This document shows positions 56-18,505 of a DNA stretch of 18,505 nucleotides, in pieces (the first letter of the stretch is position 1; each line of letters starts with the position of its first letter). The DNA lies in UHGV virus genome UHGV-0309262, one strand, 5' to 3'. This DNA is from a virus. The position numbers and the translations under genes are program-made. The notes beneath the pieces were generated by a model. The model did not search any database, was not told where the DNA came from, and saw nothing but the letters and a program-made list of their open reading frames with translations.

Positions 56-140
56 GCCGAAGTGGCGAAATCGGTAGACGCAGTTGATTCAAAATCAACC
101 GTAGAAATACGTGCCGGTTCGAGTCCGGCCTTCGGCACCA
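56..140 (+). tRNA. leuX: tRNA-Leu (anticodon CAA), 85 nt, ending in CCA
   Basis: Sequence GCCGAAGTGGCGAAATCGGTAGACGCAGTTGATTCAAAATCAACCGTAGAAATACGTGCCGGTTCGAGTCCGGCCTTCGGCACCA has cloverleaf features: anticodon stem GTTGA/TCAAC with loop TTCAAAA (anticodon CAA), a long variable arm, T-arm GGTTCGAGTCC and encoded CCA. Recognised from memory as E. coli leuX. Confidence 0.9.
110..140. repeat. attL core: 31-bp tRNA 3' end, repeated at 14568..14598
   Basis: CGTGCCGGTTCGAGTCCGGCCTTCGGCACCA occurs identically at 110..140 and 14568..14598. Flanking sequence diverges immediately outside the repeat. Confidence 0.8.
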
Positions 141-2894: not shown

Positions 2895-3146
2895 CTACTA
2901 ATAAGGAGATATAGAGCATTACTTTCCCGCTTTTGACCGACAAAAAATCGAGTTGTTAAGTATTGCCAGCCCAGGCCCAGTAAGGCTTAGCGAGGTGGTG
3001 ATTAAAAATTGACCTAATAAAAGTATCTACTAAGGAGAAAGAATAACTCCCGAAGTGAGACAAACTCTCCGATTTTGAAAGTGACTATTAAGGCAGATAA
3101 AGACACTGACACTGTTGCCGACATGAAAACCTCTATAAGGGCAGAG
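2895..3146. repeat. Array of 4 degenerate direct repeats (consensus about CTAnTAAGGnAG) upstream of the helicase gene; possible iterons or operator sites
   Basis: CTACTAATAAGGAG (2895..2908), TCTACTAAGGAG (3027..3038), GACTATTAAGGCAG (3083..3096) and CTCTATAAGGGCAGAG (3131..3146). None is followed by an ORF, so they are unlikely to be ribosome-binding sites. Confidence 0.4.
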
Positions 3147-3215
3147 AGTCTGCCGCACCTGTACCACCGCCCCAACCTGAGCTAATACCTACCCCTATTT
3201 TCTGGAGATTTCACC

Positions 3216-5060: not shown

Positions 5061-5103
5061 GCTAACTGGCTCGCCTGTTTAATTTCCTCTCTGGAGAATC
5101 CAC

Positions 5104-5535
5104 ATGCCTGATGAAACCGTGCGGCAACGCGCGGGGCGTTCTGACGCCCTGATTAATGCGCAGCTCGCTTACGCCCTGAACGGGTATTCATTTGATGGGT
5201 TGGCCGAACGTCATCGCAAGACCCTTAACCGGGAGGCCATCCTTCGCGAGGTGTCCACGCCGCTGGAGCGATATTGCCTTTTGAATGATTGCGAACCGTG
5301 GGAGTGTCTGGCCGCTGTGCTGAACCGCATGAAAAGGCCGGATGGCTCACGTTGCTGGAAAGCTGTCCGCCTGTCTGAGCGGGTTTTTAATGGTCGAGTG
5401 CATCCAGTGCGCAAGACACCTGATGAAGTTTACGCCGCCATTGCCCGCCGTTTATTTCTGCCGAAGCCCGTGCATCAAGAAGTGATACAGCACATCCGGG
5501 CGCTTGGCCTGTTACCAGTTGGAGATAACCATTAA
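5104..5535 (+). CDS. Hypothetical protein (143 aa), first gene of a coupled operon
   Basis: ORF with SD GGAGAA 6 nt upstream of the ATG. Its stop overlaps the next start (TAATG). No recognisable motif. Confidence 0.55.
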   Translation: MPDETVRQRAGRSDALINAQLAYALNGYSFDGLAERHRKTLNREAILREVSTPLERYCLLNDCEPWECLAAVLNRMKRPDGSRCWKAVRLSERVFNGRVHPVRKTPDEVYAAIARRLFLPKPVHQEVIQHIRALGLLPVGDNH

Positions 5536-5744
5536 TGACCAAAACCGAGTTTGAAGCTGGGACATGGGATATGCGGTGCCTGTTGCTGGAGGCGCTGACC
5601 CGCCGCCTGAAAGAGGACTCCGCTGGAGAATCCCGCATGGCTGCTGCCGAGCTGTCATCCTGCGTGAACTTCCTCAAGCAAAATGCCGCCGATGCGCCGG
5701 ACGCATCTTTCAATAACGTGTTCCCGGAGGATGACAACGAATGA
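5535..5744 (+). CDS. Hypothetical protein (69 aa), acidic C-terminus
   Basis: Start overlaps the preceding stop (TAATG) and the stop overlaps the next start (ATGA), indicating translational coupling. Confidence 0.45.
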   Translation: MTKTEFEAGTWDMRCLLLEALTRRLKEDSAGESRMAAAELSSCVNFLKQNAADAPDASFNNVFPEDDNE

Positions 5745-5932
5745 CGCCGCACCAGTTTAGAGCGTGGTTTAACTCGCTGCCTGAGAAGTACCAGAAGCAG
5801 GCCAAAGCCATGTACGACAACGCCCGGCGCGGCGGTGGTATCCATACCGCATCCAGCCTCGCTTTGATTAAAGACCTTGTAGAAGATTCGATTAACTTTG
5901 ATGGAGAGTTCCAGTATGACAACCACCAGTAA
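5741..5932 (+). CDS. Hypothetical protein (63 aa)
   Basis: ATGA overlap with the upstream gene; in-operon position and consistent coding composition. Confidence 0.45.
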   Translation: MTPHQFRAWFNSLPEKYQKQAKAMYDNARRGGGIHTASSLALIKDLVEDSINFDGEFQYDNHQ

Positions 5933-6494
5933 CGCAACCCTGACCCTGCGCGATATTCAGCTTATCAATAAACTGAGTATTGTTGACCACCTGAACAACG
6001 ATGAAATCTCTTCTCGCACTGGTTTCAGCCCGAGCGACATCGACCGTGTAATCCGTGGCGTCTATGTCGATGACTTGGCCGAACAGTGGAAAGACGATGC
6101 TGATATTACTCTGGCTGAATACAACGCCATCCGCAGCCGCTATAAGCCCGGCAAGCTGCACCGTGATACGGAATTTATGATTGCCCGCGATACGCTGATT
6201 CGCCCTGAAACCGTGCTGGCTATCGCTCATTCCAGATTCCAGAACGCCCACACTCACCCTGCGCCGAAAGCCGTTAAAGTGAAGCCGGAGAAAGCGAAAG
6301 CCATGCGCAAGCTGGTGCCTTCTGATTTGGATGAAATCCACAAGTTAGAGCGCTTTGGCTGGCCTGTCGCTGACATCGCCCAAAAGCTGGACGTTCCGCC
6401 AGAGGTGATCGCTTTCGTTAACCGCTGCTTAAAGAGCCGCTGGCCGTATGGTGACATTCTGGAAAATGTTAATGCGAAATGGGGAGCCGAGTGA
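5916..6494 (+). CDS. Hypothetical protein (~192 aa)
   Basis: ATG at 5916 is preceded by GGAGAG at 5902..5907. The ORF track's earlier TTG start at 5898 lacks an SD. Stop overlaps the next start (TGATG). Confidence 0.5.
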   Translation: MTTTSNATLTLRDIQLINKLSIVDHLNNDEISSRTGFSPSDIDRVIRGVYVDDLAEQWKDDADITLAEYNAIRSRYKPGKLHRDTEFMIARDTLIRPETVLAIAHSRFQNAHTHPAPKAVKVKPEKAKAMRKLVPSDLDEIHKLERFGWPVADIAQKLDVPPEVIAFVNRCLKSRWPYGDILENVNAKWGAE

Positions 6495-6724
6495 TGGAAG
6501 ATAACGACATCATTCACCCTGCAATTGACCCGACTCAATACGTCAACCTTGACGAGATGCGGGAAGGCTACGCCCCTGTTAAGCCGCAGGGGTGGGACAT
6601 CCTGACGCAGAATCTCCGAAGTGAGGCCGCACCCGAACAGCCAGTCACCGCCCGTGGACGCCGCCAGCGTCCGCGTGGCTCCGCTGGCGAGCGCCGTTGG
6701 CTACGCCGTCACGGGCTTATTTAA
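6494..6724 (+). CDS. Hypothetical protein (76 aa), Arg-rich C-terminus
   Basis: ATG 6494 overlaps the upstream stop; GGGGAG SD at 6481..6486. Confidence 0.45.
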   Translation: MEDNDIIHPAIDPTQYVNLDEMREGYAPVKPQGWDILTQNLRSEAAPEQPVTARGRRQRPRGSAGERRWLRRHGLI

Positions 6725-6738
6725 CTGAGGATTATTTC

Positions 6739-6978
6739 ATGAGCACCATCATTTTAATGGAGCCACGCCGCGCGGCTGATTGCGGGCAACAACTGAAATT
6801 CATTGCTGACGCCTTGAATCTTCGTCAAATCGACTTGGCTCGTGTGTACCAGATCGACAGACAAGATCTCGGCAAAGCGTACCACGGACAGAAGATGATT
6901 CCTGCCCGATGCGTACATGCGCACATGCTTTTACTTGAACTGGCGCACCGCCGAGTTACATCACAAGAGGTTGCATAA
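6739..6978 (+). CDS. Hypothetical small protein (79 aa)
   Basis: ATG 6739 is preceded by GAGG at 6727..6730. The track ORF starting at 6697 overlaps the previous gene and is less likely. Confidence 0.4.
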   Translation: MSTIILMEPRRAADCGQQLKFIADALNLRQIDLARVYQIDRQDLGKAYHGQKMIPARCVHAHMLLLELAHRRVTSQEVA

Positions 6979-6980
6979 TT

Positions 6981-7676
6981 ATGGCTGACAATCAAAACCC
7001 TTATCTCGCTGCTGGCGCTGATGCTGCATCGCAGCAATCGCCATACATGGCTGCACCTGTTGGAGCTGACAATGGGGCATCCCGCTTTAGCTCTGCGCCT
7101 GCTGATGCTGATTTCCTCCGTACCCAACCCGTTAACGGTAATGATGGCGGCCAATGGAATAATAGCAATATTGCTAATCAGCAAGACCAGAACGCGGACA
7201 GCGCCGGGGCGCAGGTGGGCGATACTATTCCCCTGATGGATGGAACAGCTATTGAGTACACCGCCGAGCTGCAAGGATTGATGGGGCAGTTTCACCAGTC
7301 TATAGAAAGCCAGCTCGGGCACGGAACAGTTGACGCTATGTTGCAGTACGCGGGCACGCTTGACGCCGGGACGCAATCCACCCTTGAACGTATGGTTATG
7401 TCTGGCGACCCTGCGCAGATGCAGCGGGCTGTTCAGTACCTGCAAGAGAGGATGGCCGCAGGCACTGCGACTGGTTATGTCCCGTCGCAGGGGAACACAT
7501 ATGGTCAGCCCGCCGCGCAACCTGTCGGAATGTCACACGCTGAATTCATCGCGGCGTACGATGCGCTGAATCAATGGGCTGCACAGACTGGCCGGGGTGC
7601 TGGCACGCGAGAATACGACCAGCAGTATCATGCGCTGGTTGCTCAACGCAGCGCCGGGAAGCGTGCCGGGCGCTAA
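6981..7676 (+). CDS. Hypothetical protein with a low-complexity Ala/Gln/Gly/Asn-rich N-terminal half (231 aa)
   Basis: Long ORF with no internal stops, in-operon position. The composition suggests a disordered region; no enzymatic motif recognised. Confidence 0.5.
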   Translation: MADNQNPYLAAGADAASQQSPYMAAPVGADNGASRFSSAPADADFLRTQPVNGNDGGQWNNSNIANQQDQNADSAGAQVGDTIPLMDGTAIEYTAELQGLMGQFHQSIESQLGHGTVDAMLQYAGTLDAGTQSTLERMVMSGDPAQMQRAVQYLQERMAAGTATGYVPSQGNTYGQPAAQPVGMSHAEFIAAYDALNQWAAQTGRGAGTREYDQQYHALVAQRSAGKRAGR

Positions 7677-7690
7677 CTGGAGAATTCCAT

Positions 7691-7954
7691 ATGTACGATG
7701 AGAATAGAATCCGAGTCCTGACCGAGGTAGAGAAACAATCTCACTCGGTCGATAGCATTCTTTCCATTCTGCTTGATAAATACCCCAGCACCAGCCCCGA
7801 CCATCTGACGCGTGTCGCTGAATGCCTCGTTACTTTTGGCTGGGGTGTTGCTGAATACGATGCGTACCGCGCCGGGATGCTTGGCGAAGAGAAGCGCCAG
7901 ACGATGGTCGCTTGGTTTACTGAGCGGAATTCCGCGCAACGCTGGGCTGCCTGA
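7691..7954 (+). CDS. Hypothetical protein (87 aa)
   Basis: ATG 7691 with GGAG SD 8 nt upstream, just after the upstream stop at 7674..7676. The ORF track's 7574 start lies inside the preceding gene. Confidence 0.45.
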   Translation: MYDENRIRVLTEVEKQSHSVDSILSILLDKYPSTSPDHLTRVAECLVTFGWGVAEYDAYRAGMLGEEKRQTMVAWFTERNSAQRWAA

Positions 7955-8224
7955 TTCCGATGCCAGCGCCTGACGGTGCATTGTGGGCTGCAAGTCCGAC
8001 TGGACACCTGACCCTGCGAATTAACTACTTACTGTCCACTAATCGCTGAGAGCCGCGCCAATTCTGGCCTAGCAAAGCCAGTTTCGGGTACTCGGAGACT
8101 TTTCTATCAATCTGCTTTAACCCTGATTTTCCATCTCTCTGAATCCTGCCACGGCGGGAGGATTACGCACGCCTGCACCATGACGATGGCGCGGGCTTCA
8201 TCAACCTACGTAGGAGTTTTGTTT

Positions 8225-9220
8225 ATGGCTGATACTTCGTACAGTCCCGATCTGTTTCGCCCACATTATGGCGGGGTGGAATCCGACAATGATATTCACA
8301 TCGAGGCTTATGACCGGGATGTCCAGACCCGTTTAGAGTCCAAATCCGTATTTCTGGCCGAGGGGCTGTCTACATACAGGCCGCTGAAAGGCAGCAACCA
8401 ATACCGCATTGATCGCCTGAGTGGTGATCTTGAGGTGAAGGGCAGAACCGCAGGGCAATCGCTGGAGCCTACCGCCGTTAAGTCGGACAAGCTGATCATC
8501 TCTGTGGATACTCTGAGCTATATCCGCATCCCGATTGATTATCAAGATGACTGGACTGCACCCACCTTTCGCGCCGAGCTGAGCCGCAACATGGGGACAG
8601 CCCATGCGAAGTTTTACGACGAAGCGCACACCATCCAGTTAATCAAAGCGACTGACTTTGTACCGCCGCCGACACTGCAACCAACGTTTAACCCGCTTAC
8701 GGGCAATGTTGTCTCGCTCGACCTGACAGCGGGGAGCGAAGAGGACGCCGCAAAAGAGCTGGTTCACGCTATCAAAGCTGCTGTTGATCGGTTCCTGACT
8801 GAGAAAGATATTCCGGTGGTGGAGTTGTGTCTTCTCATCGACCCGGCTTGGTTCAGCATCCTGATGGAACACAAGAAGCTGATGAACGTCCGTTATAGCC
8901 GGGATAGTGGCAACGATTACGCGTGGCGGCGCATCGGTTACGTGGCCGGGGTGCGAGTCATTGAGCTGAACAGTTACCCGCAGGAAGCCATTACCGGGCA
9001 TGAGCTGGGCGCTGATTATGACGTTACCGCAGAGGAAGCGCTGACGAGGGCGACGCTGTTTAAACCCTCCTCGGTACTGTTGACGGTCGAAGCACAGAGC
9101 GTCATCAATCGCCAGTGGGATGATGAACGCGAAATGACGGTGGTGATGGACTCATATCGCCTGTTCAACGTTGGGCTGCGTCGTCCTGATTGCGTTATCA
9201 ATTTCCGACAATCTGCGTAA
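8225..9220 (+). CDS. Hypothetical protein (331 aa); possibly structural, but this is a weak guess
   Basis: ATG 8225 preceded by AGGAG at 8210..8214, following a 270-bp intergenic gap. Size and position after a low-complexity protein loosely resemble a scaffold/capsid arrangement, but no motif confirms it. Confidence 0.5.
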   Translation: MADTSYSPDLFRPHYGGVESDNDIHIEAYDRDVQTRLESKSVFLAEGLSTYRPLKGSNQYRIDRLSGDLEVKGRTAGQSLEPTAVKSDKLIISVDTLSYIRIPIDYQDDWTAPTFRAELSRNMGTAHAKFYDEAHTIQLIKATDFVPPPTLQPTFNPLTGNVVSLDLTAGSEEDAAKELVHAIKAAVDRFLTEKDIPVVELCLLIDPAWFSILMEHKKLMNVRYSRDSGNDYAWRRIGYVAGVRVIELNSYPQEAITGHELGADYDVTAEEALTRATLFKPSSVLLTVEAQSVINRQWDDEREMTVVMDSYRLFNVGLRRPDCVINFRQSA

Positions 9221-9236
9221 CTGGAGGGGCTGGGTC

Positions 9237-9746
9237 ATGGTTAATGATACTTACGCCCCTGAGCTGTTGCGATCCCTTTTCCTGTACGACCCGGTGACAG
9301 GTCGCCTGCACCATAAAGCTAACCGACGCCGGGTTAAGGCTGGCTCCTGTGCTGACTCCACCCGTCGAGCTGATGGCTATCGTCAAGTTGCCCTGCGACT
9401 GGATGGCAAGCAGTACCAGCTAAAAGCCCACCGCGTGGCGTGGATTCTTGCGCATGGCGCTATTCCTGATGGTCTGCAAGTTGACCACATCAACGGTATC
9501 CGTGACGACAACCGCCTATGCAATCTGCGCTTGGTTACGCAGCGGGAAAACGACCAGAACCGACGCAGGGCAAAGGGTTGTAGCTGGAATAAGGGCTGTA
9601 GCAAATGGGAGGCTTACATTCGCGTTAATGGTGTACGCCATCACCTTGGCTTATTCACTAGCGAAGCGGCGGCGCGTGCTGCTTACCTGAAAGCAAAAGC
9701 CAGATACCATCCCTCGACCCCAGTCGATTTGTTAAATGCTGCTTAA
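9237..9746 (+). CDS. HNH endonuclease with AP2-like DNA-binding domain (169 aa)
   Basis: AHRVAWILAHGAIPDGLQVDHINGIRDDNRLCNLRLVTQRENDQNR matches the phage-type HNH_3 signature (H...DH.NG...DNR..NL......N). WEAYIRVNGVRHHLGLFTSEAAARAAY matches an AP2 domain. SD GGAGGGG 6 nt upstream. Confidence 0.7.
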   Translation: MVNDTYAPELLRSLFLYDPVTGRLHHKANRRRVKAGSCADSTRRADGYRQVALRLDGKQYQLKAHRVAWILAHGAIPDGLQVDHINGIRDDNRLCNLRLVTQRENDQNRRRAKGCSWNKGCSKWEAYIRVNGVRHHLGLFTSEAAARAAYLKAKARYHPSTPVDLLNAA

Positions 9747-9764
9747 ACTTTGGAGACGTAGTTT

Positions 9765-10199
9765 ATGGGGACTAAAAAGCAGGGTAGAGCAATCCGAGTG
9801 CTGCCAGATGATGACCCACGTCGCCAGCGGTACGCCGAACTGTTGGCGCAGGCTGGCCGGATGACTGTCCCCCGGTTGCATCCGGGAGACGCTAACAGCG
9901 TAATGAGCCAGCTCGCGACGATGCTTGGCGCACCAGTCCCGATAGTCGGCACTATGACGGAGCACGCCGCCGCATGGCGGACCTGCCTGCTGGAGCAAGG
10001 ACTTGGCGATCTGCTGGCTGGCTTGAGTAAGCAGGTACTGACCGTCTTCTTTCTGCTTTGCTGGAGAGACAGCGCCTTGCGGCAGGTTGGCAAGGAGCGG
10101 GAACGGCTTACGGCGGCCAGCGAAGGCTTGACCATTGAACAGTATCGGGCAATGCGCTCGGCTTACAGAGAGAATAAAGAAGATGATGACCACGATTAA
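9765..10199 (+). CDS. Hypothetical protein (144 aa)
   Basis: ORF with GGAGACG SD upstream of ATG 9765; in-operon position. Confidence 0.45.
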   Translation: MGTKKQGRAIRVLPDDDPRRQRYAELLAQAGRMTVPRLHPGDANSVMSQLATMLGAPVPIVGTMTEHAAAWRTCLLEQGLGDLLAGLSKQVLTVFFLLCWRDSALRQVGKERERLTAASEGLTIEQYRAMRSAYRENKEDDDHD

Positions 10200-10482
10200 A
10201 TTAAGGTGGCGGTACATCGATCCGCCGCCAATGGCTGGCGCACTCGCTGACCTGAAAGTGTGGGTAATGGATACCGGAGAGCCTGAGCTGGAAGCTGAAT
10301 TTCGTAAGCTGCTGGGGTTAATGCGCCGCAACGGTATCAGTGACGAACGCGTTAATGCGATGGCTGATGAGCTTTATGTTCTGGTACGGCAACGGCAGCG
10401 CGAAGAATACGAAGCCTGCAAGCGGGCTGCATCTGACAATGGAGACTTTGAATCATGGTTACACGGACAGACCAGCTACTAA
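10183..10482 (+). CDS. Hypothetical protein (~99 aa)
   Basis: ATG 10183 overlaps the end of the upstream gene. The 5' part of the track ORF (from 10135) overlaps that gene and is rejected. Confidence 0.4.
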   Translation: MMTTIKLRWRYIDPPPMAGALADLKVWVMDTGEPELEAEFRKLLGLMRRNGISDERVNAMADELYVLVRQRQREEYEACKRAASDNGDFESWLHGQTSY

Positions 10483-10883
10483 GAAAAGCTATGCGGGGCT
10501 ATCTGGAACACCTCGGCAACATGCCGTTGGCGGAACGGATTACAAACACTGCTGCATTCGAAGATGTGTATCGCTTCCTGTTGAATGGTTCCGGGCGTCT
10601 GGAGCTGCGTCGTGCTGATGTGGCCGCTGTCCGTTTCTTCTTGTGGAATTATCAATACCGCCGCTGTGCGGTGACAGGTAAGCCGCTGCGCCTTACGTCT
10701 GCCGTATTAGATCACTGCCACCGAACCGGGCGCGTGCGTGCTGTGGTGCATCGCTCTGCTAACGCTGCTGAGGGTGGCTACCATGCTGGGCGTTTGTGTG
10801 GGCTGTCGCCTAGCAGCATGAACGCGATGCTGGCGAGCTACCGCCAACAAAACCAAGGGCTGGGCGTTGTTTATCCGGGGTGA
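10455..10883 (+). CDS. Endonuclease VII-like (Holliday-junction/branched-DNA nuclease family) protein (142 aa)
   Basis: C-terminal CAVTGKPL...LDHCHRTGRVRAVVHRSANAAEG matches the Endonuclease_7 pattern (C..C...DH.H.TG.VR.....N...G). GGAGA SD upstream of ATG 10455. Confidence 0.6.
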   Translation: MVTRTDQLLRKAMRGYLEHLGNMPLAERITNTAAFEDVYRFLLNGSGRLELRRADVAAVRFFLWNYQYRRCAVTGKPLRLTSAVLDHCHRTGRVRAVVHRSANAAEGGYHAGRLCGLSPSSMNAMLASYRQQNQGLGVVYPG

Positions 10884-10895
10884 TGAGTTCTCGCT

Positions 10896-10917
10896 GCGCC
10901 GGGTTTGCACCCGGCAC
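10896..10917. terminator. Putative bidirectional hairpin between convergent transcription units
   Basis: GCCGGGT-TTGC-ACCCGGC stem-loop in the 55-bp gap between the plus-strand operon (ends 10883) and the minus-strand R gene (ends 10939). Weak U-tract. Confidence 0.3.
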
Positions 10918-10938
10918 AAAAGATGTTTAGCCCACTAG

Positions 10939-12015
10939 TCAGTGGGTTACGCAGTTTTCCATAAACGCATTAAGGAATTGATCTGTAATTCCTTGTGGTT
11001 TGCGTCGTTCACAAAGAGAATACAATTCTTCGACTGCTGAGTACGGGAAGAATTTTGTGTCCAGCTCTCGGAATTGCGGCATATTCGCAAACTCAATGAC
11101 TTTAGCACGATATTCATCGGGGGCTACGATTGTCCATCTGATATCTTGAAGCCGTGGGGCATAGTCACAAAAATTCTTCATCCGGGTTAACCCGCTTTTA
11201 ATCCCAGTGCTGTGCTCAATTTCCATCACGGCGGGCATTAATTTTCCATTTCTAAACCAAATGCAATCTATTAGTTTTGCACCGTCAATGGCCTCGCTGT
11301 ACGAGCTTAATACCTTTTCATTTGAGAGGCTATCAATTACCCCATCCATTTGAGCAATGACTTTTCCGTTATATTTAAGTCCGCGATCATTAGCTGCCAC
11401 CCATGTTCTGTAGCCTAAGTGGTGGCCGATTTTTACTAATGCAATCTGGATTTGTGCATGTCTTCTTGATTCTTCAATCGACATGCCCTCAACTGGGCGG
11501 ATCGTTTCCAGATCAACGCTTTGATATACAACCTCTGTTTTCATCTCTGATATTACAATATTAGCTTTGTATTCAGAGAGCTTACCGTTTTCGTGTGGCG
11601 AATTGGGTAAGTACACAAGATGCTTGTGGCCTTTCTTTACCGTCTGTTTAGTGTTAATAACTTCTAAACGGTCGAGTTTACACCAATAAAATTGCGGTGT
11701 GTGTGCAAGTAAACTCTCAATAACGGAACGGGAGTTATAGCTTGCACCAAGCACTCTATCTAAATTGATAGGTGCATCCTCTTGAATTGCATTAGCCAAA
11801 CGCCAAAGCATCTGGCTAGAGATGCTGTCTATTTTTGCATCTTTAAGCGTCTCGCCTTTGGTCGGATTAAAACGCTTAAAGCGTATCGGGCCTTGTGGTG
11901 ACTTAATCGAGTCGACGACAATCTTCCCAGCATTACTTTCATTCACATAATCAAACTGCCTGTTTTTGGGCAGGTTGGCTATCGCATTCACAAGATTCAT
12001 TGCTGTCAAATTCAT
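10939..12015 (-). CDS. Putative type II restriction endonuclease (358 aa), cognate to the adjacent methyltransferase
   Basis: Immediately downstream of, and overlapping by 65 nt, a C5-cytosine methyltransferase gene on the same strand. Similar low GC. AGGGA SD upstream of ATG 12015. The function is inferred from position only; no catalytic motif recognised. Confidence 0.5.
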   Translation of the reverse strand: MNLTAMNLVNAIANLPKNRQFDYVNESNAGKIVVDSIKSPQGPIRFKRFNPTKGETLKDAKIDSISSQMLWRLANAIQEDAPINLDRVLGASYNSRSVIESLLAHTPQFYWCKLDRLEVINTKQTVKKGHKHLVYLPNSPHENGKLSEYKANIVISEMKTEVVYQSVDLETIRPVEGMSIEESRRHAQIQIALVKIGHHLGYRTWVAANDRGLKYNGKVIAQMDGVIDSLSNEKVLSSYSEAIDGAKLIDCIWFRNGKLMPAVMEIEHSTGIKSGLTRMKNFCDYAPRLQDIRWTIVAPDEYRAKVIEFANMPQFRELDTKFFPYSAVEELYSLCERRKPQGITDQFLNAFMENCVTH

Positions 12016-13090
12016 CTTTTATCCCTAAATGCTCTAATATAGATTTTGCTATTCCGAAGGCTGCAAGGTAAGGAACACCATTACCAACAGTTTTGAACAT
12101 ATTTGAAAGAGTCATATAAGATGGCAATTCAAACTCTTTCGGCAAAGACTGAATGGCAAGCGCTTCTGCAACTGTTATTCTGCGTGGCTTATATGGATGT
12201 AAATGAACCTCGTTATTACCATAAGCAGCAGTCGGCGAATATCTCCAGCGGTGGAGGCGCTTGTAAGATTTTTTACTATCGTCACCTTCTGCAACAGCCT
12301 TGAAGCGTACTAATCCAGCTCTGGCCGTAAATACATGCTTCGCGTTCACATGTTCAGAAACATTATTTTTCTTAAACCAGTAATCAACAGTTAATTCTTG
12401 TGGGAGTGACTCTGGCATTGCAAGTGTAGAGTCCTCGGAAAATTCATTTGTTGTTGGCCAACTGTAACTAAAGGCATTACGATCCGGGTATAATCTGCCA
12501 CTCCAATTAAATGACTTGGCTAGTCTCTTACTTTGGAAACCCAATAGAATAATGCGCTCTCGGTCTTGCGGAGCACCGTATTCAATCGAATTAATCAACC
12601 TTTCATGAAGAGTGTAACCCACATCCATCAACTGCTCTTTGAGATGCTCAAAAAACTCGCGATGCTTGAGTGTGCGATATAACCCCTTGACGTTCTCGAA
12701 CAAGAAGAAGTCAGGTTTCATCTCTACAATTATATCAATGTAGCTTTGGGACAGCTTACCATTCTCCCCATCGCGCCCTTTGTTTTTGCCCGCAACGGAG
12801 AAGTCGGGGCAAGGTGGGCCACCAATGAAGCCAATCAGTCTTTTTTCTTTCTTGAGTGTTTTAATAGCGTCTTTCAACTGCTTGTGATCAACTTCCTCTA
12901 TGCTCTTTTCGGCATAGCCAAAACGAGGGATAGGCTTGTTCATTACCGCACGCGAGTGCTTGTAAGCATCCATAAACGGCGGGTGAAATTCATTCACAAA
13001 AACCACTTCGTAGCCTGAGTTTTCAAAGCCAAGGTCTAAAAAGCCTGAGCCGGAAAAGAAAGAGAAGATGGCGGGTTTAAGTGTGGACAT
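11951..13090 (-). CDS. DNA (cytosine-5)-methyltransferase (379 aa)
   Basis: C5-MTase motifs in the expected order: motif I FSGSGF (F-x-G-x-G), motif IV GGPPCP (the catalytic Pro-Cys), motif VI ENV (FLFENVKGL), motif VIII QDRER, motif X GNGVP near the C-terminus. Confidence 0.8.
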   Translation of the reverse strand: MSTLKPAIFSFFSGSGFLDLGFENSGYEVVFVNEFHPPFMDAYKHSRAVMNKPIPRFGYAEKSIEEVDHKQLKDAIKTLKKEKRLIGFIGGPPCPDFSVAGKNKGRDGENGKLSQSYIDIIVEMKPDFFLFENVKGLYRTLKHREFFEHLKEQLMDVGYTLHERLINSIEYGAPQDRERIILLGFQSKRLAKSFNWSGRLYPDRNAFSYSWPTTNEFSEDSTLAMPESLPQELTVDYWFKKNNVSEHVNAKHVFTARAGLVRFKAVAEGDDSKKSYKRLHRWRYSPTAAYGNNEVHLHPYKPRRITVAEALAIQSLPKEFELPSYMTLSNMFKTVGNGVPYLAAFGIAKSILEHLGIKDEFDSNESCECDSQPAQKQAV

Positions 13091-13225
13091 TTTTTACCTA
13101 TTGCTGATCATTAAGACATGCGAAAACGCCCCTGCATCTTAACAGATGAGGGGGTCATTGCAACGGATTGCGGGGAGCTGTAGCGATGAGCTGGCTCAGA
13201 TGAACGATTCAAACATCCATTAAAT

Positions 13226-14434
13226 TTAAAGGGCTATTTGATGGTTCACAAACTCCACGTAGCGTGATAGTTCGGCTGGGGCTGCTGCGTTTTTCGAATA
13301 TGTTTTGAAGCTCTCCGTGTTACCTCGCTCATGGCCGACGAGCAGGGCAATGCGATCCTCTGGCACTTGAGCACGGTCGAGCTGTTGCACAAACGCATGG
13401 CGGAGTGAATGAAACACTTTTCTCTCTGCGGCAGGCTCGCCAAGAGCTTTACGCTTTGCTCGCGTGAATTGTTGCGTATGCCACGTTGAGCGCTTCCCAT
13501 CGGCCCGGTCTGTAATAGATGCGTGATAGAACAGAAAACCGCTATGTGTGGTTTTGAGCAATGATTTCATGAGGGGGATTAACTTGCTGTGTACAGGGAC
13601 AATTCGCGCTGCGCTCTTAGTTTTCCCCTCGGTGATCTCAAAGCACAATATCCCCTCGATAGTTTTAATGCTGCTTTCACGTAGCGTACATATCTCATTG
13701 ATCCGCATACCGCTGTATGCACCAATAGCCGTTACCGCCTTCATCTCATCATCAAGCAAAGCATAGACCTTTGCCAGCTCACCCGGTGCGAAGACTTCAT
13801 AGCTGACCTTGCTGCTTTTTGCTTCGAGCGCATGACCGCGCCAAGGATTGTCTTGTGGCGCATCGTGATAGCGATTGCGTGCCAGATCCCATATCTGCGC
13901 CAGTGCGCTTATATAGTTTTGAATAGTTTGGGGCGCTCGCTCAGTTTTGAGCTTATCTAACCAGCCTGTAACTATGGTTCGGTTAATATCCCGCAACTGA
14001 ACATCTTTCTTTTTCAGGTGGGTTAACAGCACCTCTACGGCTTTGTTGGTCTTAGATAGCGTTGTTAGCTTTCTCTTCTCGCTGTATTGGAGAAGATACA
14101 GATCGCGCATTTTAAGTAGGGAGGGGCAAGCCTGAACCGATGCACCAAATGATGCGGGGGCTTCCTTGGCATATACACTGACACGGCGTAGCTCATCAAT
14201 GATTTGATCGACGGATGAGCCGCCTTGCGGTTTTAGCAGATTCCGTAAGCGAGTCCATTCCAGAGCAATAGCATCGCGAAACAAACGCGCTTGCCGTATG
14301 TCGCGTGTCCCTGTGCTTTTCATAAAGTAGCGCTTCCCTTGGAACAGGTGACGCATATAGCTGGGGATAGCTATCCGCACGAGGTAATTACCGCAGGGAT
14401 CTAAAACTAGATAACGATCTCTCTTGAAACTCAT
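13226..14434 (-). CDS. Tyrosine recombinase / phage-type integrase of the inserted element (402 aa)
   Basis: C-terminal catalytic signature: R in YSGMRINEI, HSLRHAF (H-x-x-R box), LLVGH, and the nucleophile Y in TESFKTYSKN. Lies next to the right direct repeat. Confidence 0.8.
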   Translation of the reverse strand: MSFKRDRYLVLDPCGNYLVRIAIPSYMRHLFQGKRYFMKSTGTRDIRQARLFRDAIALEWTRLRNLLKPQGGSSVDQIIDELRRVSVYAKEAPASFGASVQACPSLLKMRDLYLLQYSEKRKLTTLSKTNKAVEVLLTHLKKKDVQLRDINRTIVTGWLDKLKTERAPQTIQNYISALAQIWDLARNRYHDAPQDNPWRGHALEAKSSKVSYEVFAPGELAKVYALLDDEMKAVTAIGAYSGMRINEICTLRESSIKTIEGILCFEITEGKTKSAARIVPVHSKLIPLMKSLLKTTHSGFLFYHASITDRADGKRSTWHTQQFTRAKRKALGEPAAERKVFHSLRHAFVQQLDRAQVPEDRIALLVGHERGNTESFKTYSKNAAAPAELSRYVEFVNHQIAL

Positions 14435-14567
14435 ACAAACCCCGGTTATGTTGTCGGGGCTTTTTCATGGCTAAACAGTCTGTGAAATGTGCCGGGGTTA
14501 TGAGCTTTAGTCTCGCTGGTTCAATGATTTAACAATGATTCTTGAAGCAAGCTAAGCCGCCTAAACC

Positions 14568-14598
14568 CGTGCCGGTTCGAGTCCGGCCTTCGGCACCA
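14568..14598. repeat. attR core: displaced original 3' end of leuX
   Basis: Identical 31-bp copy of tRNA positions 110..140, located ~165 bp upstream of the P4-like integrase where an intact leuX would normally sit. Confidence 0.8.
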
Positions 14599-14710: not shown

Positions 14711-14764
14711 TTGGGGGCATAATTGGGGGCATCTTAACTTCGATTAGAAATGTGCCCCCAAATG
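14711..14764. promoter_or_regulatory. Direct and inverted repeats of a TTGGGGGC motif upstream of and overlapping the intB start; putative integrase operator or arm-type site
   Basis: TTGGGGGCAT (14711..14720) and TTGGGGGCAT (14723..14732) are direct repeats. Their reverse complement GCCCCCAA sits at 14753..14760, overlapping the start codon. Confidence 0.3.
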
Positions 14765-16027
14765 AAGCTCAACGCCAGACAGGTCGAGACCGCAAAGCCA
14801 AAAGACAAAACCTATAAAATGGCCGATGGCGGCGGTTTGTATCTCGAGGTTTCGGCCAAGGGTTCTAAATACTGGCGCATGAAATACAGACGCCCCTCAG
14901 ACAAAAAAGAGGATCGCCTCGCTTTTGGTGTTTGGCCTACTGTGACGCTTGCTCAGGCAAGAGCAAAGCGCGACGAAGCTAAAAAGCTGTTAGTGCAGGG
15001 CATTGACCCAAAAGCCGAACTGAAAGAAGCTCAGGCCGAGAATTCGGGGGCATATACTTTCGAAACCATTGGCCGTGAATGGCATGCCAGTAACAAGCGC
15101 TGGAGTGAAGACCATCGATCACGCGTTCTTCGCTATCTTGAGCTTTATATCTTCCCTCATATCGGTTCGTCCGACATTCGCCAGCTCAAAACTAGCCACC
15201 TGTTAGCCCCGATTAAAAAAGTTGATGCCAGTGGAAAGCATGACGTCGCTCAGCGCTTGCAACAGCGCGTTACGGCCATTATGCGTTATGCCGTACAGAA
15301 CGATTACATCGACTCAAATCCAGCCAGTGATATGGCCGGTGCGCTATCGACAACCAAAGCGCGGCACTATCCTGCTTTGCCCTCTAGCCGCTTCCCAGAG
15401 TTTCTTGCTCGTCTTGCTGCATATCGTGGCCGTGTAATGACACGGATCGCGGTCGAGCTTTCCTTACTCACTTTTGTACGTTCCAGTGAGTTACGTTTCG
15501 CGCGTTGGGATGAATTCGACTTCGATAAATCTCTTTGGCGTATACCGGCAAAACGAGAAGAAATTAAAGGCGTGCGTTACTCGTATCGTGGCATGAAAAT
15601 GAAAGAGGAGCATATTGTTCCTCTCAGTCGGCAGGCGATGGTTTTATTAGAGCAGCTCAAGCAAATTAGTGGTGATAAAGAGCTGCTGTTCCCGGGAGAT
15701 CATGACGCAACTAAGGTTATGAGTGAAAACACGGTAAACAGTGCATTGCGTGCAATGGGATATGACACGAAAACTGAGGTCTGTGGGCATGGGTTCAGAA
15801 CGATGGCGCGTGGTGCTATGGGTGAGTCAGGGTTGTGGAGTGATGACGCGATAGAGCGACAGCTGAGCCATTCAGAACGTAATAACGTGCGTGCAGCTTA
15901 TATTCATACTTCTGAGCATTTGGATGAGCGACGTTTAATGATTCAGTGGTGGGCTGATTATCTTGATGAGTTAAATAATAATTACATTACTCCATTTGAT
16001 TTCGCTAAAATACAAAAAAATTATTAA
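14762..16027 (+). CDS. intB: P4-family tyrosine integrase (421 aa)
   Basis: N-terminus MKLNARQVETAKPKDKTYKMADGGGLYLEV is the hallmark P4-like integrase arm-binding signature (AKPK..Y...DGGGLYL). Typical position just downstream of the leuX 3' end. The in-frame ATG at 14750 is an alternative start. Confidence 0.85.
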   Translation: MKLNARQVETAKPKDKTYKMADGGGLYLEVSAKGSKYWRMKYRRPSDKKEDRLAFGVWPTVTLAQARAKRDEAKKLLVQGIDPKAELKEAQAENSGAYTFETIGREWHASNKRWSEDHRSRVLRYLELYIFPHIGSSDIRQLKTSHLLAPIKKVDASGKHDVAQRLQQRVTAIMRYAVQNDYIDSNPASDMAGALSTTKARHYPALPSSRFPEFLARLAAYRGRVMTRIAVELSLLTFVRSSELRFARWDEFDFDKSLWRIPAKREEIKGVRYSYRGMKMKEEHIVPLSRQAMVLLEQLKQISGDKELLFPGDHDATKVMSENTVNSALRAMGYDTKTEVCGHGFRTMARGAMGESGLWSDDAIERQLSHSERNNVRAAYIHTSEHLDERRLMIQWWADYLDELNNNYITPFDFAKIQKNY

Positions 16028-16038
16028 TATTTACATGG

Positions 16039-16062
16039 AAGGGCTGAAAGAACAGCCCTTCT
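16039..16062. terminator. Bidirectional rho-independent-type terminator between intB and the convergent AT-rich locus
   Basis: Perfect 9-bp stem GAAGGGCTG / CAGCCCTTC with loop AAAGAA, flanked by T-rich sequence on both strands. Confidence 0.5.
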
Positions 16063-16070
16063 AATATATT

Positions 16071-16327
16071 TAATTATTTTTCAGTAATCCTTTATCTTCT
16101 AATTCTGTATAGATAGCTAGCGGTAATTTTAAGGAATCATAATCATTATTCCTTAACCATTCCTTCGCCGCACTTACCGAAGGGTTTGAGTTTGGAATGA
16201 TATTCTCTAGATACGATGCTGTAATTCTAGATAACCCTAGTTCGATGAATACTTGCCCTGCGATAGATGAAACCCCTAGTTCAAGTGATAATGGAAAATC
16301 ATAGATTTCTTCAGATTTTTTTCTTGG
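16071..16327 (-). other. Start-less 84-codon open frame overlapping the helicase 3' end; possible frameshifted C-terminal extension or gene remnant
   Basis: My translation of the minus strand gives ...KSEEIYDFPLSLELGVSSIAGQVFIELGLSRITASYLENIIPNSNPSVSAAKEWLRNNDYDSLKLPLAIYTELEDKGLLKNN* with no ATG, GTG or TTG. It is in the -1 frame relative to the helicase and begins at an A7 tract (plus-strand T7 at 16306..16312). Confidence 0.3.
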
Positions 16328-18345
16328 TTATTTTCAATTAAAGCTTGGCGCAATAAGTCAATATATGCCTTGCCAAGTTGCACATATTTGAATCGCAAGT
16401 TATCTTCCACGAAATCAAAAACCTCTCTTACAGCTCTGTCCACATTTACAGGCCTAGTGGAGTTTTTTTCTTTTTTCTTATTTATGGAGAGAGAGATTAT
16501 CTCCGGCAGAGATTTACCCCTCATCCAATTCAAAGCCATTGAAGTTAGATAGTTAGAAAATTTAGATGTATTATGGTTAAGGATGTATTTATTTATTCTG
16601 CTAAAAACACCAACGTAATTTTTGTAAACATCACCTGAAGGATGGCGAGGTATAAGTTCGTCAACTTTACCTTCCTTTATTTTCTGGATAAATCTATTGT
16701 ACAATCGTTCCTGTCCAAATGGATCAACTGTCCAGTTCAGAGTTAAAACCTCATGAGGTATTTTAAGTGATTCTAATGAGATATAAGTGGCATTTTCAAT
16801 AGTTTCAAGTTTTGATTTGTCAGATATAGTTCGAAATAATCTTTTAAGAAAATTATGCAAATCTCCTTTTGCGGCTCTGGAGATTAAAAGGCCTGCCGCT
16901 GCATCAATATTACTATATGGCGTCACTCCTGAATGATTATTTTTGTCTAATCGTGATATTACTGTGTCAAAATCTTCATTAATTACTTTCTTAAAAGATG
17001 AAGTAATTTTGAAGTCTATTTTGGAATCTAAAGGCTTGGTTACCCAATCATCATAGTCAATAAGATAAACATTTCCCGAAAATGCATAACCTAATCTACC
17101 TGCCCGCCCTGCGAAATTCCATAGCGATGCTGGATCTAATTTTTCTCCCCTGTTTCCTCGTGTAGGTGTATCAATAAAAACATTCTTTGCAGGCAGATTA
17201 ACCCCTTGAAAAAGGGTTGTTGTGCAAACTAAAAACTTCAGTTTATTATTCGTGAAATTTTTTTCTAATGTTTCTCTTAATAAGCTTGGCATTTTACCAT
17301 AATGGTATCCAACCCCTCTCAATACGAGGTTTGCAAGAGAGTAATCCTTGTGGACATGTTTTTTTATAAATTTTGAGAGCTCTTGTAATTCACTGTCATC
17401 CTCTAAAAGAGGTAATCCAGAAGATATTTGCTTAGCTACATCTTCTGCATTGGCAGCTCCGGTTCCGTAAACTAAAGACCCCTCATTTTTTCCTAATTCT
17501 AATGCGACAGCCGCCAATCTTGTATTTTCATTGGCGAAACCCCTTGTCGATTCTATTTCTCCGATCGGTAATATGTTTGAATTGTCTAATAATGATAATT
17601 GTAAGTTGTTTTCTTTTGATGGATCAACTTTGACGATAATTTTGTTTTGAACTACAGGAGATAGATTTGTTTTTTCAATATGGATTGCATCGATTCCAAT
17701 AATATCTGCTAAATCATCAAAACCTTCAGCACCAGGCGCGAGGAAAACATATTTTGCATTAGGGTTTTGTGTGCTAATTTTATCAAGGCAGTCCTGTAAT
17801 ATCATCCCCCTAATTTCGTCAGAAATTGATTGTGCTTCGTCAATAACTACCAAGTCTATTTTTTCTTCAAAATTATCAAGCAATACTTGAAGTCTTTCCT
17901 GTGTTAAAACAAATATCTGCTTATTATATTCGTTATTAATTGTTGGTATGGATGTTACTCTGACTTCATTTTGATATGGTAAAGTCTTGATTATAAATTT
18001 TTGTGTTATTTCATTTACTAAAGCACGGGTTGGTGCTATATAAATGGCGGAATTTAATTCGCCGCTAATTATTCTGTTGGCGAGCATTTCCACAACTAAG
18101 AACGATTTTCCGGCTGATGTTGGAGCTGATATAGCTTGAGGGACATTCGAGTGCAATGACTCCCATACTCTTTTCTGAAAGTTTGTTAATGTTATTTCTT
18201 TGTTGGAGATCTTTATTTTATTTTCATTTTCTATGAAAGATCTTTTTAAGAAGGCATAAAAACTTTCTGGTATAAATCCATTTTCTTGTTGAAGATAAGT
18301 TGCTCCAGGGAAGTTGCCCAAAACTCTTAAAAGATTTTCTGACAT
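16276..18345 (-). CDS. Ski2/Hel308-like superfamily 2 DExx-box helicase (~689 aa) in very AT-rich DNA; candidate anti-phage defence gene
   Basis: Motif I APTSAGKS, motif II VVIDEAQ, motif VI FAGRAGRLG, and a Ski2/Hel308-like block GVGYHYGKMPSLLRETLEKNF...LKFLVCTTTLFQGVNLPAKNV. Start taken as ATG 18345 (MSENLL...). The ORF track's TTG start at 18381 lies inside the IS1 inverted repeat and is rejected. Confidence 0.7.
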   Translation of the reverse strand: MSENLLRVLGNFPGATYLQQENGFIPESFYAFLKRSFIENENKIKISNKEITLTNFQKRVWESLHSNVPQAISAPTSAGKSFLVVEMLANRIISGELNSAIYIAPTRALVNEITQKFIIKTLPYQNEVRVTSIPTINNEYNKQIFVLTQERLQVLLDNFEEKIDLVVIDEAQSISDEIRGMILQDCLDKISTQNPNAKYVFLAPGAEGFDDLADIIGIDAIHIEKTNLSPVVQNKIIVKVDPSKENNLQLSLLDNSNILPIGEIESTRGFANENTRLAAVALELGKNEGSLVYGTGAANAEDVAKQISSGLPLLEDDSELQELSKFIKKHVHKDYSLANLVLRGVGYHYGKMPSLLRETLEKNFTNNKLKFLVCTTTLFQGVNLPAKNVFIDTPTRGNRGEKLDPASLWNFAGRAGRLGYAFSGNVYLIDYDDWVTKPLDSKIDFKITSSFKKVINEDFDTVISRLDKNNHSGVTPYSNIDAAAGLLISRAAKGDLHNFLKRLFRTISDKSKLETIENATYISLESLKIPHEVLTLNWTVDPFGQERLYNRFIQKIKEGKVDELIPRHPSGDVYKNYVGVFSRINKYILNHNTSKFSNYLTSMALNWMRGKSLPEIISLSINKKKEKNSTRPVNVDRAVREVFDFVEDNLRFKYVQLGKAYIDLLRQALIENNQEKNLKKSMIFHYHLN

Positions 18346-18367
18346 TTGTTTCAAATAATCATCACCG

Positions 18368-18505
18368 GGTGATGCTGCCAACTTACTGATTTAGTGTATG
18401 ATGGTGTTTTTGAGGTGCTCCAGTGGCTTCTGTTTCTATCAGCTGTCCCTCCTGTTCAGCTACTGACGGGGTGGTGCGTAACGGCAAAAGCACCGCCGGA
18501 CATCA
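18368..18505 (+). mobile_element. IS1 insertion sequence, left end (IRL plus 5' region), truncated by the window edge
   Basis: GGTGATGCTGCCAACTTACTGATTTAGTGTATGATGGTGTTTTTGAGGTGCTCCAGTGGCTTCTGTTTCTATCAGCTGTCCC... matches the IS1 left terminus and insA leader as recalled from memory. Composition jumps abruptly from ~30% GC to ~50% GC at 18367/18368. Confidence 0.8.
18423..18505 (+). CDS. insA: IS1 InsA, N-terminal fragment (continues beyond the window)
   Basis: GTG start followed by a translation [27 protein letters not shown], the zinc-finger-containing N-terminus of InsA. Confidence 0.7.

What the first reader, a model, noticed from the sequence alone, without database searches (positions are those of the whole stretch)
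16071..16330. Possible frameshift at an A7 tract truncating the helicase C-terminus
An 84-codon open frame with no canonical start codon lies in the -1 frame relative to the helicase, overlapping its last ~17 codons and running to the terminator hairpin. In DNA this AT-rich, stop codons are frequent, so 84 stop-free codons is unlikely to be chance. The frame opens at a homopolymeric A7 run (plus-strand T7 at 16306..16312). A one-base indel there would fuse it to the helicase, giving a ~770 aa protein. The gene may therefore be a slippage-inactivated pseudogene, use programmed frameshifting, or be phase-variable.
Basis: seen in the sequence. Interest (0 to 1): 0.5.

Follow-up and report, generated by a model that had tools for sequence, protein, structure and literature searches.

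The report
Frameshifted, IS1-truncated Hachiman helicase pseudogene
The open frame is the real C-terminus of a phage-defence helicase (HamB), cut off from the rest of the gene by loss of one A from an A8 run; the gene is also truncated at its start by an IS1 insertion, so this is an ordinary decaying pseudogene.

Summary
On the minus strand the helicase ORF (16276..18381) stops at TAG 16276-16278. A start-less frame of 85 codons (16327..16073, stop TAA 16072-16070) lies in the -1 frame and opens at an A7 run.

The helicase is HamB of a type I Hachiman defence system, carried as cargo next to a P4-type integrase at leuX. A 99.9 % identical E. coli allele (strain 1368KP) has A8 at the tract. It encodes one 852-aa protein whose C-terminus matches the window's "extension" residue for residue. 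Homologues down to about 40 % identity are all single ORFs of 844-888 aa with this C-terminus strongly conserved, and none has the EKK/A8 sequence.

So the window carries a 1-nt deletion in a homopolymer. It removes the last 82 residues of HamB and adds 13 aberrant ones. An IS1 end (18368..18505) also removes the first 86 codons.

Programmed frameshifting is not supported: the site is not conserved and has no stimulatory structure. Phase variation is weakly suggested by A7-A10 polymorphism among E. coli genomes, but those variants sit in alleles already broken elsewhere.

Ordinary; low interest.

The parts
16276..18367 (-). hamB (Hachiman helicase) pseudogene, main frame. It covers codons ~87-770 of the intact 852-aa protein, then 13 out-of-frame codons and TAG (16276-16278).
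   Evidence: DEAD + Helicase_C. PADLOC HamB1 PDLC00187, profile positions 91-774 of 851, E = 0; 99.9 % identical to intact hamB of E. coli 1368KP from window 18368 downward.
16316..16322 (-). A7 homopolymer (plus-strand T7), the site of the frameshift. The intact allele has A8 (CAA GAA AAA AAA TCT = QEKKS).
   Evidence: coordinates; window A7; L001, L002 and L003 A8; L004 A7; L005 A9; L006 A10.
16070..16327 (-). Displaced C-terminal coding segment of hamB in the -1 frame. 85 sense codons (16327..16073) match residues 768-852 of intact HamB, of which the last 82 (771-852) are the ones lost from the product. Stop TAA at 16072-16070.
   Evidence: translation; identical to the C-terminus of the intact 852-aa protein. 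HamB1 profile positions 769-849, E = 2.7e-25; invariant residues L782, E783, G785, G798, S800, R801 and E842 across 87 homologues.
16036..16063 (.). GC-rich hairpin (11-bp stem) between the convergent hamB and integrase genes. Likely a shared or bidirectional terminator.
   Evidence: terminator-like site called on the + strand. It lies 6 nt beyond the hamB TAA and 8 nt beyond the integrase stop.
18368..18505 (-). End of an IS1 element (terminal inverted repeat GGTGATGCTGCCAAC...) replacing the first 86 codons of hamB. The contig ends inside it.
   Evidence: window 18368-18505 is 100 % identical to the end of an annotated IS1 in strain 744. Homology to hamB starts at 18368, which corresponds to L001 4001; hamB starts at L001 3742.
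14750..16027 (+). P4-type tyrosine integrase, convergent with hamB. It marks the integrase side of the P4-like psu-int defence hotspot.
   Evidence: Arm-DNA-bind_3, Phage_int_M and Phage_integrase domains; in strain 1368KP the order is psu, psu, ogr/delta, hamA, hamB, int, tRNA-Leu.
14568..14598 (+). 31-bp copy of the 3' end of tRNA-Leu(CAA). It is the attachment-site remnant next to the P4-type integrase.
   Evidence: exact repeat of 110..140; tRNA-Leu at 56..140.

Best explanation
The region is the 3' part of hamB, the sensor helicase gene of a type I Hachiman (HamA nuclease + HamB helicase) anti-phage system. The system is low-GC cargo in the defence hotspot of a P4-like satellite remnant integrated at leuX.

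In this strain hamB is a pseudogene with two independent lesions.

1. One A was lost from an A8 run (A8 to A7 at 16316..16322). The most likely cause is replication slippage in the homopolymer. Translation shifts after Lys770, adds 13 aberrant residues and stops at TAG 16276. The last 82 conserved residues, a small alpha-helical C-terminal domain, stay stranded in the -1 frame without a start codon.

2. An IS1 insertion replaces the first 86 codons. These belong to the N-terminal helical bundle, which in solved Hachiman complexes binds HamA.

The stranded frame is still open because the deletion is very recent: the allele differs from an intact one by 2 substitutions in 2.47 kb.

Shown: identity of the gene, the A8 reference state, conservation of the C-terminus, the IS1 junction.
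Inferred: replication slippage as the cause, loss of function, and the order of the two lesions.
For: - The intact allele in E. coli 1368KP is 99.9 % identical. It differs by 2 substitutions and 1 indel in 2,470 nt, and the indel is A8 versus A7 at the tract.
- Its 852-aa product ends ...ENNQEKKSEEIYDFPLSLELGV...KGLLKNN, identical to the window's -1 frame.
- The two window frames match consecutive parts of one PADLOC HamB1 profile, positions 91-774 and 769-849 of 851.
- Full-length single-ORF homologues of 844-888 aa, with query coverage of 92 % or more, occur in Pectobacterium, Enterobacter, Verrucomicrobia, Acidobacteria, Burkholderiales and others.
- The C-terminal 75 residues are among the best-conserved parts: YDFPLxLELGVS...ELGLSRITAS, invariant in 87 sequences at L782, E783, G785, G798, S800, R801 and E842.
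- An AlphaFold model of the 84 % identical orthologue is confident (pLDDT 89.7). It shows residues 778-845 as a helical domain with pLDDT 83-92. The best fold matches are solved HamB (8vxa, TM 0.73), then Hel308, Hjm and Pol-theta helicase.
- The exact truncated product occurs on 3 ENA contigs. The TTG-start version, which includes IS1-derived codons, is listed for a Logan contig. The allele is therefore real and not a one-off assembly error.
- IS1 junction.
- HamA and HamB are both required for defence, and the HamB N-terminal bundle binds HamA (PMC12278908; PMC11914072).
- A and T runs are hypermutable by replication slippage (PMC1088944).
Against: - No reads are available, so mixed A7/A8 populations in the metagenome sample cannot be excluded.
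- A low level of transcriptional or ribosomal slippage at A AAA AAU could yield traces of in-frame product.
- Loss of function was not tested experimentally.
- The contig ends in IS1, so it is unknown whether hamA and the 5' end of hamB survive on the other side.
- Independence of the samples behind the 3 ENA contigs is unknown.
Confidence: 0.92

Rival explanations
1. Phase-variable (contingency) switch. The A8 tract toggles Hachiman ON (A8) and OFF (A7 or A9) by reversible slippage, which would let lineages escape the cost or autoimmunity of the system.
For: - Tract length is polymorphic in 119 complete E. coli genomes carrying this gene: about 114 have A8, 2 have A7, 1 has A9, and 2 records of one strain have A10.
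- Hachiman is reported to be mildly toxic (PMC12278908).
Against: - All A7, A9 and A10 variants in complete genomes lie in the allele class that carries another frameshift 140 nt upstream (loss of C at the window-equivalent of 16462). This was sequence-checked for ETEC1702, 1297KP and C21 and inferred from the shared C-type SNP for VE-V11-M. Their tract changes switch nothing.
- Some of these variants may be long-read homopolymer errors.
- The tract is absent from orthologues. Salmonella (92 % identical) has QAEKAEE and Pectobacterium has LVHKSGE.
- The window allele also carries an irreversible IS1 truncation.
- A8 is short compared with classical contingency tracts.
Confidence: 0.03
2. Programmed -1 ribosomal frameshifting or transcriptional slippage at A AAA AAU restores a full-length C-terminus, so both frames are used by design.
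For: - The zero-frame sequence GAA AAA AAU contains an X XXY YYZ-type heptamer, A AAA AAU (read from the sequence).
- It resembles the IS1 and dnaX slippery sites (from general knowledge).
Against: - All homologues encode the two parts in one frame.
- The nearest allele is in frame with A8.
- The heptamer is not conserved.
- The 100 nt downstream fold no better than shuffles (z = 0.02).
- The gene lacks its first 86 codons.
- A7 is below the 9-nt runs used in PMC1088944 as the search criterion for transcriptional-slippage candidates.
Confidence: 0.02
3. Sequencing or assembly artefact. The organism has A8, and the MEGAHIT contig miscalled the homopolymer.
For: - The window is a short-read metagenome contig, ERZ27268480 k141_59542.
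- Homopolymers are error-prone.
Against: - The identical 689-aa truncated product is on 3 ENA contigs (longest 36 kb), and the 701-aa version is listed for a Logan contig.
- A7 also occurs in two complete genomes of a different allele class.
Confidence: 0.03

Closest known systems
Intact E. coli hamB allele (WP_119912875.1 in strain 1368KP, NZ_CM173843.1). An intact 852-aa E. coli HamB of the same 90 % cluster (P0123) is on 89 contigs.
   Same: Same gene, 99.9 % nucleotide identity. Same neighbours: P4-type integrase and the leuX attachment site.
   Different: The window has A7 instead of A8, one extra non-synonymous change (S to L at 16838) and an IS1 in place of codons 1-86.
Common split hamB of E. 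coli (WP_001352286.1, 726 aa, plus the 'hypothetical protein' WP_001446910.1, 124 aa), for example strain W5-6
   Same: Same gene at 98.8 % identity, also inactivated by a single-base deletion near an A run, with the C-terminus stranded as a separate small ORF.
   Different: A different lesion: loss of C at the window-equivalent of 16462, about 140 nt upstream. A8 is retained. hamA is 5'-truncated by IS remnants.
Hachiman HamAB of E. coli ECOR31 (PDB 8VX9, 8VXA; Tuck et al. 2024)
   Same: Same system type and fold: N-terminal helical bundle, two RecA domains, C-terminal helical region. Best Foldseek match, TM 0.73.
   Different: Only about 15-16 % sequence identity. 1,174 aa versus 852 aa, and the ECOR31 protein ends in an OB-like barrel. 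The window copy is a pseudogene.
Hel308 / Hjm / Pol-theta helicase-domain (Ski2-like SF2 helicases)
   Same: Shared helicase core and overall architecture. The stranded C-terminal helical domain occupies the position of Hel308 domain 5; this is an inference and was not tested at domain level.
   Different: These are DNA-repair enzymes with no HamA partner and no N-terminal HamA-binding bundle.
IS1 insAB' and dnaX -1 frameshift sites (A AAA AAC / A AAA AAG)
   Same: An A-rich X XXY YYZ heptamer at the junction of two overlapping frames.
   Different: Here the site is a recent mutation of an in-frame A8. It is not conserved and has no stimulator.

Membership tests
Hachiman HamB helicase (type I) | SF2 DEAD/DEAH helicase core (RecA1 + RecA2) | tested here: met
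   PF00270 E = 2.2e-15 and PF00271 E = 8.8e-09.
Hachiman HamB helicase (type I) | End-to-end match to a HamB profile | tested here: met
   PADLOC PDLC00187: main ORF matches positions 91-774, the -1 frame peptide matches 769-849 of 851. The intact allele matches 1-849.
Hachiman HamB helicase (type I) | Adjacent hamA (DUF1837 nuclease) gene | not testable with these tools
   The contig ends inside IS1 upstream of hamB. In the 99.9 % identical locus of strain 1368KP, hamA lies directly upstream (HamA1 PDLC00172, E = 3.8e-141).
Hachiman HamB helicase (type I) | Fold similar to solved HamB | tested here: met
   The model of the 84 % identical orthologue (pLDDT 89.7) has HamB 8vxa_A as top PDB hit, E = 8.9e-24, TM 0.73.
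Hachiman HamB helicase (type I) | Intact, translatable full-length gene | tested here: not met
   A8 to A7 frameshift, plus IS1 replacing codons 1-86.
Programmed -1 frameshift / transcriptional slippage site | Slippery heptamer or long homopolymer at the frame junction | tested here: met
   A AAA AAU in the zero frame, within an A7 run.
Programmed -1 frameshift / transcriptional slippage site | Two-frame arrangement and slippery site conserved in homologues | tested here: not met
   All homologues are single ORFs. No orthologue has the EKK/A8 motif.
Programmed -1 frameshift / transcriptional slippage site | Downstream stimulatory RNA structure | tested here: not met
   MFE -14.8 kcal/mol against a shuffle mean of -14.85, z = 0.02.
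Phase-variable contingency locus | Tract-length polymorphism among close relatives | tested here: met
   A7, A8, A9 and A10 are seen among 119 complete E. coli genomes. Some of this may be sequencing error.
Phase-variable contingency locus | Length changes switch an otherwise intact gene ON and OFF | tested here: not met
   The variants in complete genomes belong to the allele class already frameshifted upstream (sequence-checked in three of the four variant strains). The window allele is also cut by IS1.
Phase-variable contingency locus | Within-population heterogeneity of tract length | not testable with these tools
   No reads are available.
P4-like satellite defence hotspot (psu-int) | Cargo lies between psu/delta and the P4-type integrase next to a tRNA att site | tested here: inconclusive
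   The integrase and the att copy are present (14750..16027 and 14568..14598). The psu side lies beyond the contig end. The full arrangement is seen in strain 1368KP. The hotspot concept is from PMC9122126.

The most novel reading that the evidence does not exclude
The A8 run in this E. coli hamB allele acts as a simple contingency tract. Reversible A8 to A7 or A9 slippage would switch a costly, autoimmunity-prone Hachiman system off and on within a lineage, and the window would capture an OFF phase that was later locked in by IS1.
Probability: 0.03. Interest if true: 0.45.

Novelty: already known. Interest (0 to 1): 0.1.

Why it matters
Its main value is for annotation. The start-less open frame, and the 124-aa "hypothetical protein" annotated in many E. 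coli genomes, are simply the C-terminus of HamB. This copy of Hachiman should be scored as non-functional in defence-system inventories.

It also illustrates how defence cargo in P4-like hotspots decays. This one gene has been inactivated independently by two different single-base deletions next to A runs and by IS1 insertions at two or more sites. No new mechanism is implied.

Tried and rejected
- Pfam and NCBIfam scans of the 85-aa peptide found nothing. Only the PADLOC HamB profiles recognise it.
- An exact search for the IS1-hamB junction in GTDB species-representative genomes gave 0 hits, so the source strain and the sequence beyond IS1 remain unknown.
- Look-up of the 701-aa TTG-start product in the look-up of encoding contigs found no record, although the cluster table lists it on one Logan contig.
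- No complete E. coli genome carries the same IS1 junction. The 100 %-coverage hits are multi-piece matches to IS1 copies elsewhere in those genomes.
- The RNA fold downstream of the tract showed no structure, which counts against programmed frameshifting.
- An independent small gene in the open frame was considered and rejected. It has no start codon, and the frame is contiguous with HamB in every homologue.
- The second structure job and a domain-level fold search of the C-terminal 82 aa were not run. The equivalence to Hel308 domain 5 therefore remains an inference.

Full report
**Observation**

On the minus strand an ORF runs from 18381 to 16276 (701 codons from a TTG, TAG at 16276-16278). 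It carries DEAD (PF00270) and Helicase_C (PF00271) domains.

One base back from this frame, a stretch of 85 sense codons is open from 16327 to 16073. It reads PRKKSEEIYDFPLSLELGV...AIYTELEDKGLLKNN and ends at TAA 16072-16070. No ATG, GTG or TTG in that frame gives an ORF of 20 aa or more.

The frame opens two codons before an A7 run. The frame ends 6 nt before an 11-bp GC-rich hairpin (16036..16063), which sits between the helicase gene and a convergent integrase gene.

The open stretch is not a chance event. Elsewhere in this gene, off-frame stop-free runs average 9.2 codons with a maximum of 50. A composition model gives P about 0.001, and 81 of 100,000 shuffles of the segment are stop-free.

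**What the gene is**

A megablast search against 5,426 complete E. coli genomes finds the region in about 120-130 of them (119 carry the tract segment). It is annotated as a DEAD/DEAH helicase preceded by a "HamA C-terminal domain-containing protein" and followed by a tyrosine integrase and tRNA-Leu.

In strain 1368KP (locus L001) the gene order is psu, psu, ogr/delta, hamA, hamB, int, tRNA-Leu. This is the psu-int defence hotspot of P4-like satellites described in PMC9122126.

PADLOC profiles identify the window ORF as HamB1 (PDLC00187, E = 0, profile positions 91-774 of 851). They identify the neighbouring 1368KP protein as HamA1 (E = 3.8e-141). The region has 33 % G+C against 48-57 % in the rest of the window, as expected for horizontally acquired cargo.

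**The frameshift**

The 1368KP allele is 99.9 % identical to the window over 2,470 nt, with two substitutions and one indel. The indel lies in the A run: 1368KP has A8 and the window has A7.

The 1368KP gene is one ORF of 852 codons. It reads ...ALIENNQEKKSEEIYDFPLSLELGVSSIAGQVFIELGLSRITASYLENIIPNSNPSVSAAKEWLRNNDYDSLKLPLAIYTELEDKGLLKNN*. From Ser772 onward this is identical to the window's -1 frame.

The 85-aa peptate-free check by profile agrees: the 85-aa peptide alone matches positions 769-849 of the same HamB1 profile with E = 2.7e-25. The two frames therefore cover consecutive parts of one protein.

The window reads CAA GAA AAA AAT CTG..., which gives 13 aberrant residues (NLKKSMIFHYHLN) and then a stop. 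The last 82 residues of HamB are lost from the product.

**Conservation of the lost part**

A search of 5.8 billion proteins returned 1,585 relatives. The full-length ones are single proteins of 844-888 aa with query coverage of 92 % or more, and they go down to about 40 % identity. They come from Pectobacterium, Enterobacter, Paraburkholderia, Undibacterium, Chromobacterium, Pseudomonas, Brevundimonas, Verrucomicrobia and Acidobacteria.

In alignments of 15 and 87 sequences the C-terminal segment is among the most conserved regions. The consensus is YDFPLALELGVSS.AGQ.FIELGLSRITAS. Residues L782, E783, G785, G798, S800, R801 and E842 are invariant in all 87 sequences.

No orthologue has the Glu-Lys-Lys that creates the A8 run: Salmonella (92 % identical) has QAEKAEE and Pectobacterium has LVHKSGE.

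An AlphaFold model of the 84 % identical orthologue is confident (pLDDT 89.7, pTM 0.88). Residues 778-845 form a small bundle of short helices with pLDDT 83-92. Its best PDB matches are solved HamB from E. coli ECOR31 (8vxa_A, E = 8.9e-24, TM 0.73), followed by Hel308, Hjm and Pol-theta helicase domains.

**A second lesion**

The last 138 bases of the window (18368..18505) are 100 % identical to the end of an annotated IS1. Homology to hamB begins at 18368, which corresponds to position 260 of the intact gene. The first 86 codons are therefore replaced by IS1, and the listed TTG start lies inside the IS1 inverted repeat.

In solved Hachiman complexes the N-terminal helical bundle of HamB is the HamA-binding surface. 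Deleting it prevents complex formation, and both proteins are required for defence (PMC12278908; PMC11914072).

The window is a MEGAHIT metagenome contig (ENA ERZ27268480, k141_59542) that breaks inside the IS1. What lies beyond the IS1 is unknown.

**Is the allele real?**

The exact 689-aa truncated product occurs on three ENA contigs, the longest of 36 kb. The 701-aa version, which includes IS1-derived codons, is listed on a Logan contig. An intact 852-aa E. coli HamB of the same 90 % cluster is on 89 contigs. An assembly error is therefore unlikely, though reads were not available to check.

**Rival readings**

*Programmed frameshifting.* The zero-frame A AAA AAU is formally a slippery heptamer. 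However:
- the site is a very recent derivative of an in-frame A8;
- it is not conserved in orthologues;
- no homologue uses two frames;
- the 100 nt downstream fold no better than shuffles (z = 0.02).

*Phase variation.* Among the 119 complete genomes that carry this segment the census is as follows:

| Tract length | Genomes or records |
|---|---|
| A8 | about 114 |
| A7 | 2 (ETEC1702, VE-V11-M) |
| A9 | 1 (1297KP) |
| A10 | 2 records of the same strain, C21 |

All of these variants belong to the common allele class. That class is already broken about 140 nt upstream by loss of a C next to another A run (window-equivalent 16462). It is annotated as a 726-aa helicase plus a 124-aa hypothetical protein. 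The upstream lesion was checked in sequence for five loci, including three of the four variant strains.

The tract is therefore a mutational hotspot, or a sequencing-error hotspot, as expected for A and T runs (PMC1088944). There is no evidence that it switches an intact gene. Only one of the 119 complete genomes retains an uninterrupted hamB.

**Verdict**

This is a recently inactivated hamB pseudogene. A single-A deletion in an A8 run has stranded its conserved C-terminal domain in the -1 frame, and an IS1 insertion has truncated its 5' end. It sits in a decaying P4-like satellite remnant at leuX.

It is a known gene of a known system, inactivated in an ordinary way. Interest is low. The residual novel reading, a contingency tract controlling Hachiman, has a probability of about 3 %.

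Noticed in passing
window 18368..18505: The contig ends in the terminal part of an IS1 element that replaces the first 86 codons of hamB. The TTG start of the listed 701-aa ORF lies inside the IS1 inverted repeat. The metagenome contig probably breaks here because IS1 is a repeat.
   Followed up: yes
window 56..140 and 14568..14598 (island 141..14598): A 31-bp exact direct repeat of the 3' end of tRNA-Leu(CAA) (leuX) brackets a ~14.4-kb island. The island sits in tandem between leuX and the P4-type integrase. It encodes a serine recombinase/invertase-like protein (1223..1906), a helicase/primase-like protein (3216..5060), a major head protein (8180..9220), an HNH endonuclease, an endonuclease VII and a tyrosine integrase (13226..14434, -). 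It looks like a capsid-encoding satellite or PICI-like element.
   Followed up: partly
window 10939..13090 (- strand): A likely type II restriction-modification pair inside that island: a C-5 cytosine methyltransferase (11951..13090) overlapping a gene whose product hits PF27126 NmeDI_C (10939..12015). G+C is 43 % against ~55 % for the rest of the island.
   Followed up: no
L002 5881..5931 (window-equivalent 16462); also L003-L006: Most E. coli carriers of this hamB have an independent frameshift: loss of a C immediately after an A6-G-A7 stretch. It splits the gene into a 726-aa helicase and a 124-aa 'hypothetical protein' (WP_001446910.1), which is really the HamB C-terminus. Their hamA is also shortened next to IS remnants.
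   Followed up: partly
L003 4602..5371 (E. coli strain 744): A separate IS1 insertion in the middle of hamB. The flanking matches overlap by 9 bp, consistent with the 9-bp target duplication of IS1. This shows repeated IS1 hits on the gene.
   Followed up: partly
L004, L005, L006 at ~3515..3555: The homopolymer is A7 in ETEC1702 (and by alignment length in VE-V11-M), A9 in 1297KP and A10 in strain C21. Whether these are real slippage events or long-read homopolymer errors could not be determined.
   Followed up: partly
PDB 9wh1_B: The closest solved sequence relative of this HamB is an 853-aa chain labelled 'DNA polymerase theta (Helicase domain only)' (profile E = 1.8e-57, aligned over positions 138-799). 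Its length and similarity suggest a HamB-like defence helicase rather than Pol theta. The entry was not examined.
   Followed up: no
window 16001..18368 versus the rest: There is a sharp compositional break: hamB has 33-35 % G+C, while the adjacent integrase has ~48 % and the upstream island 43-58 %. This is consistent with hamAB being foreign cargo in the hotspot.
   Followed up: no
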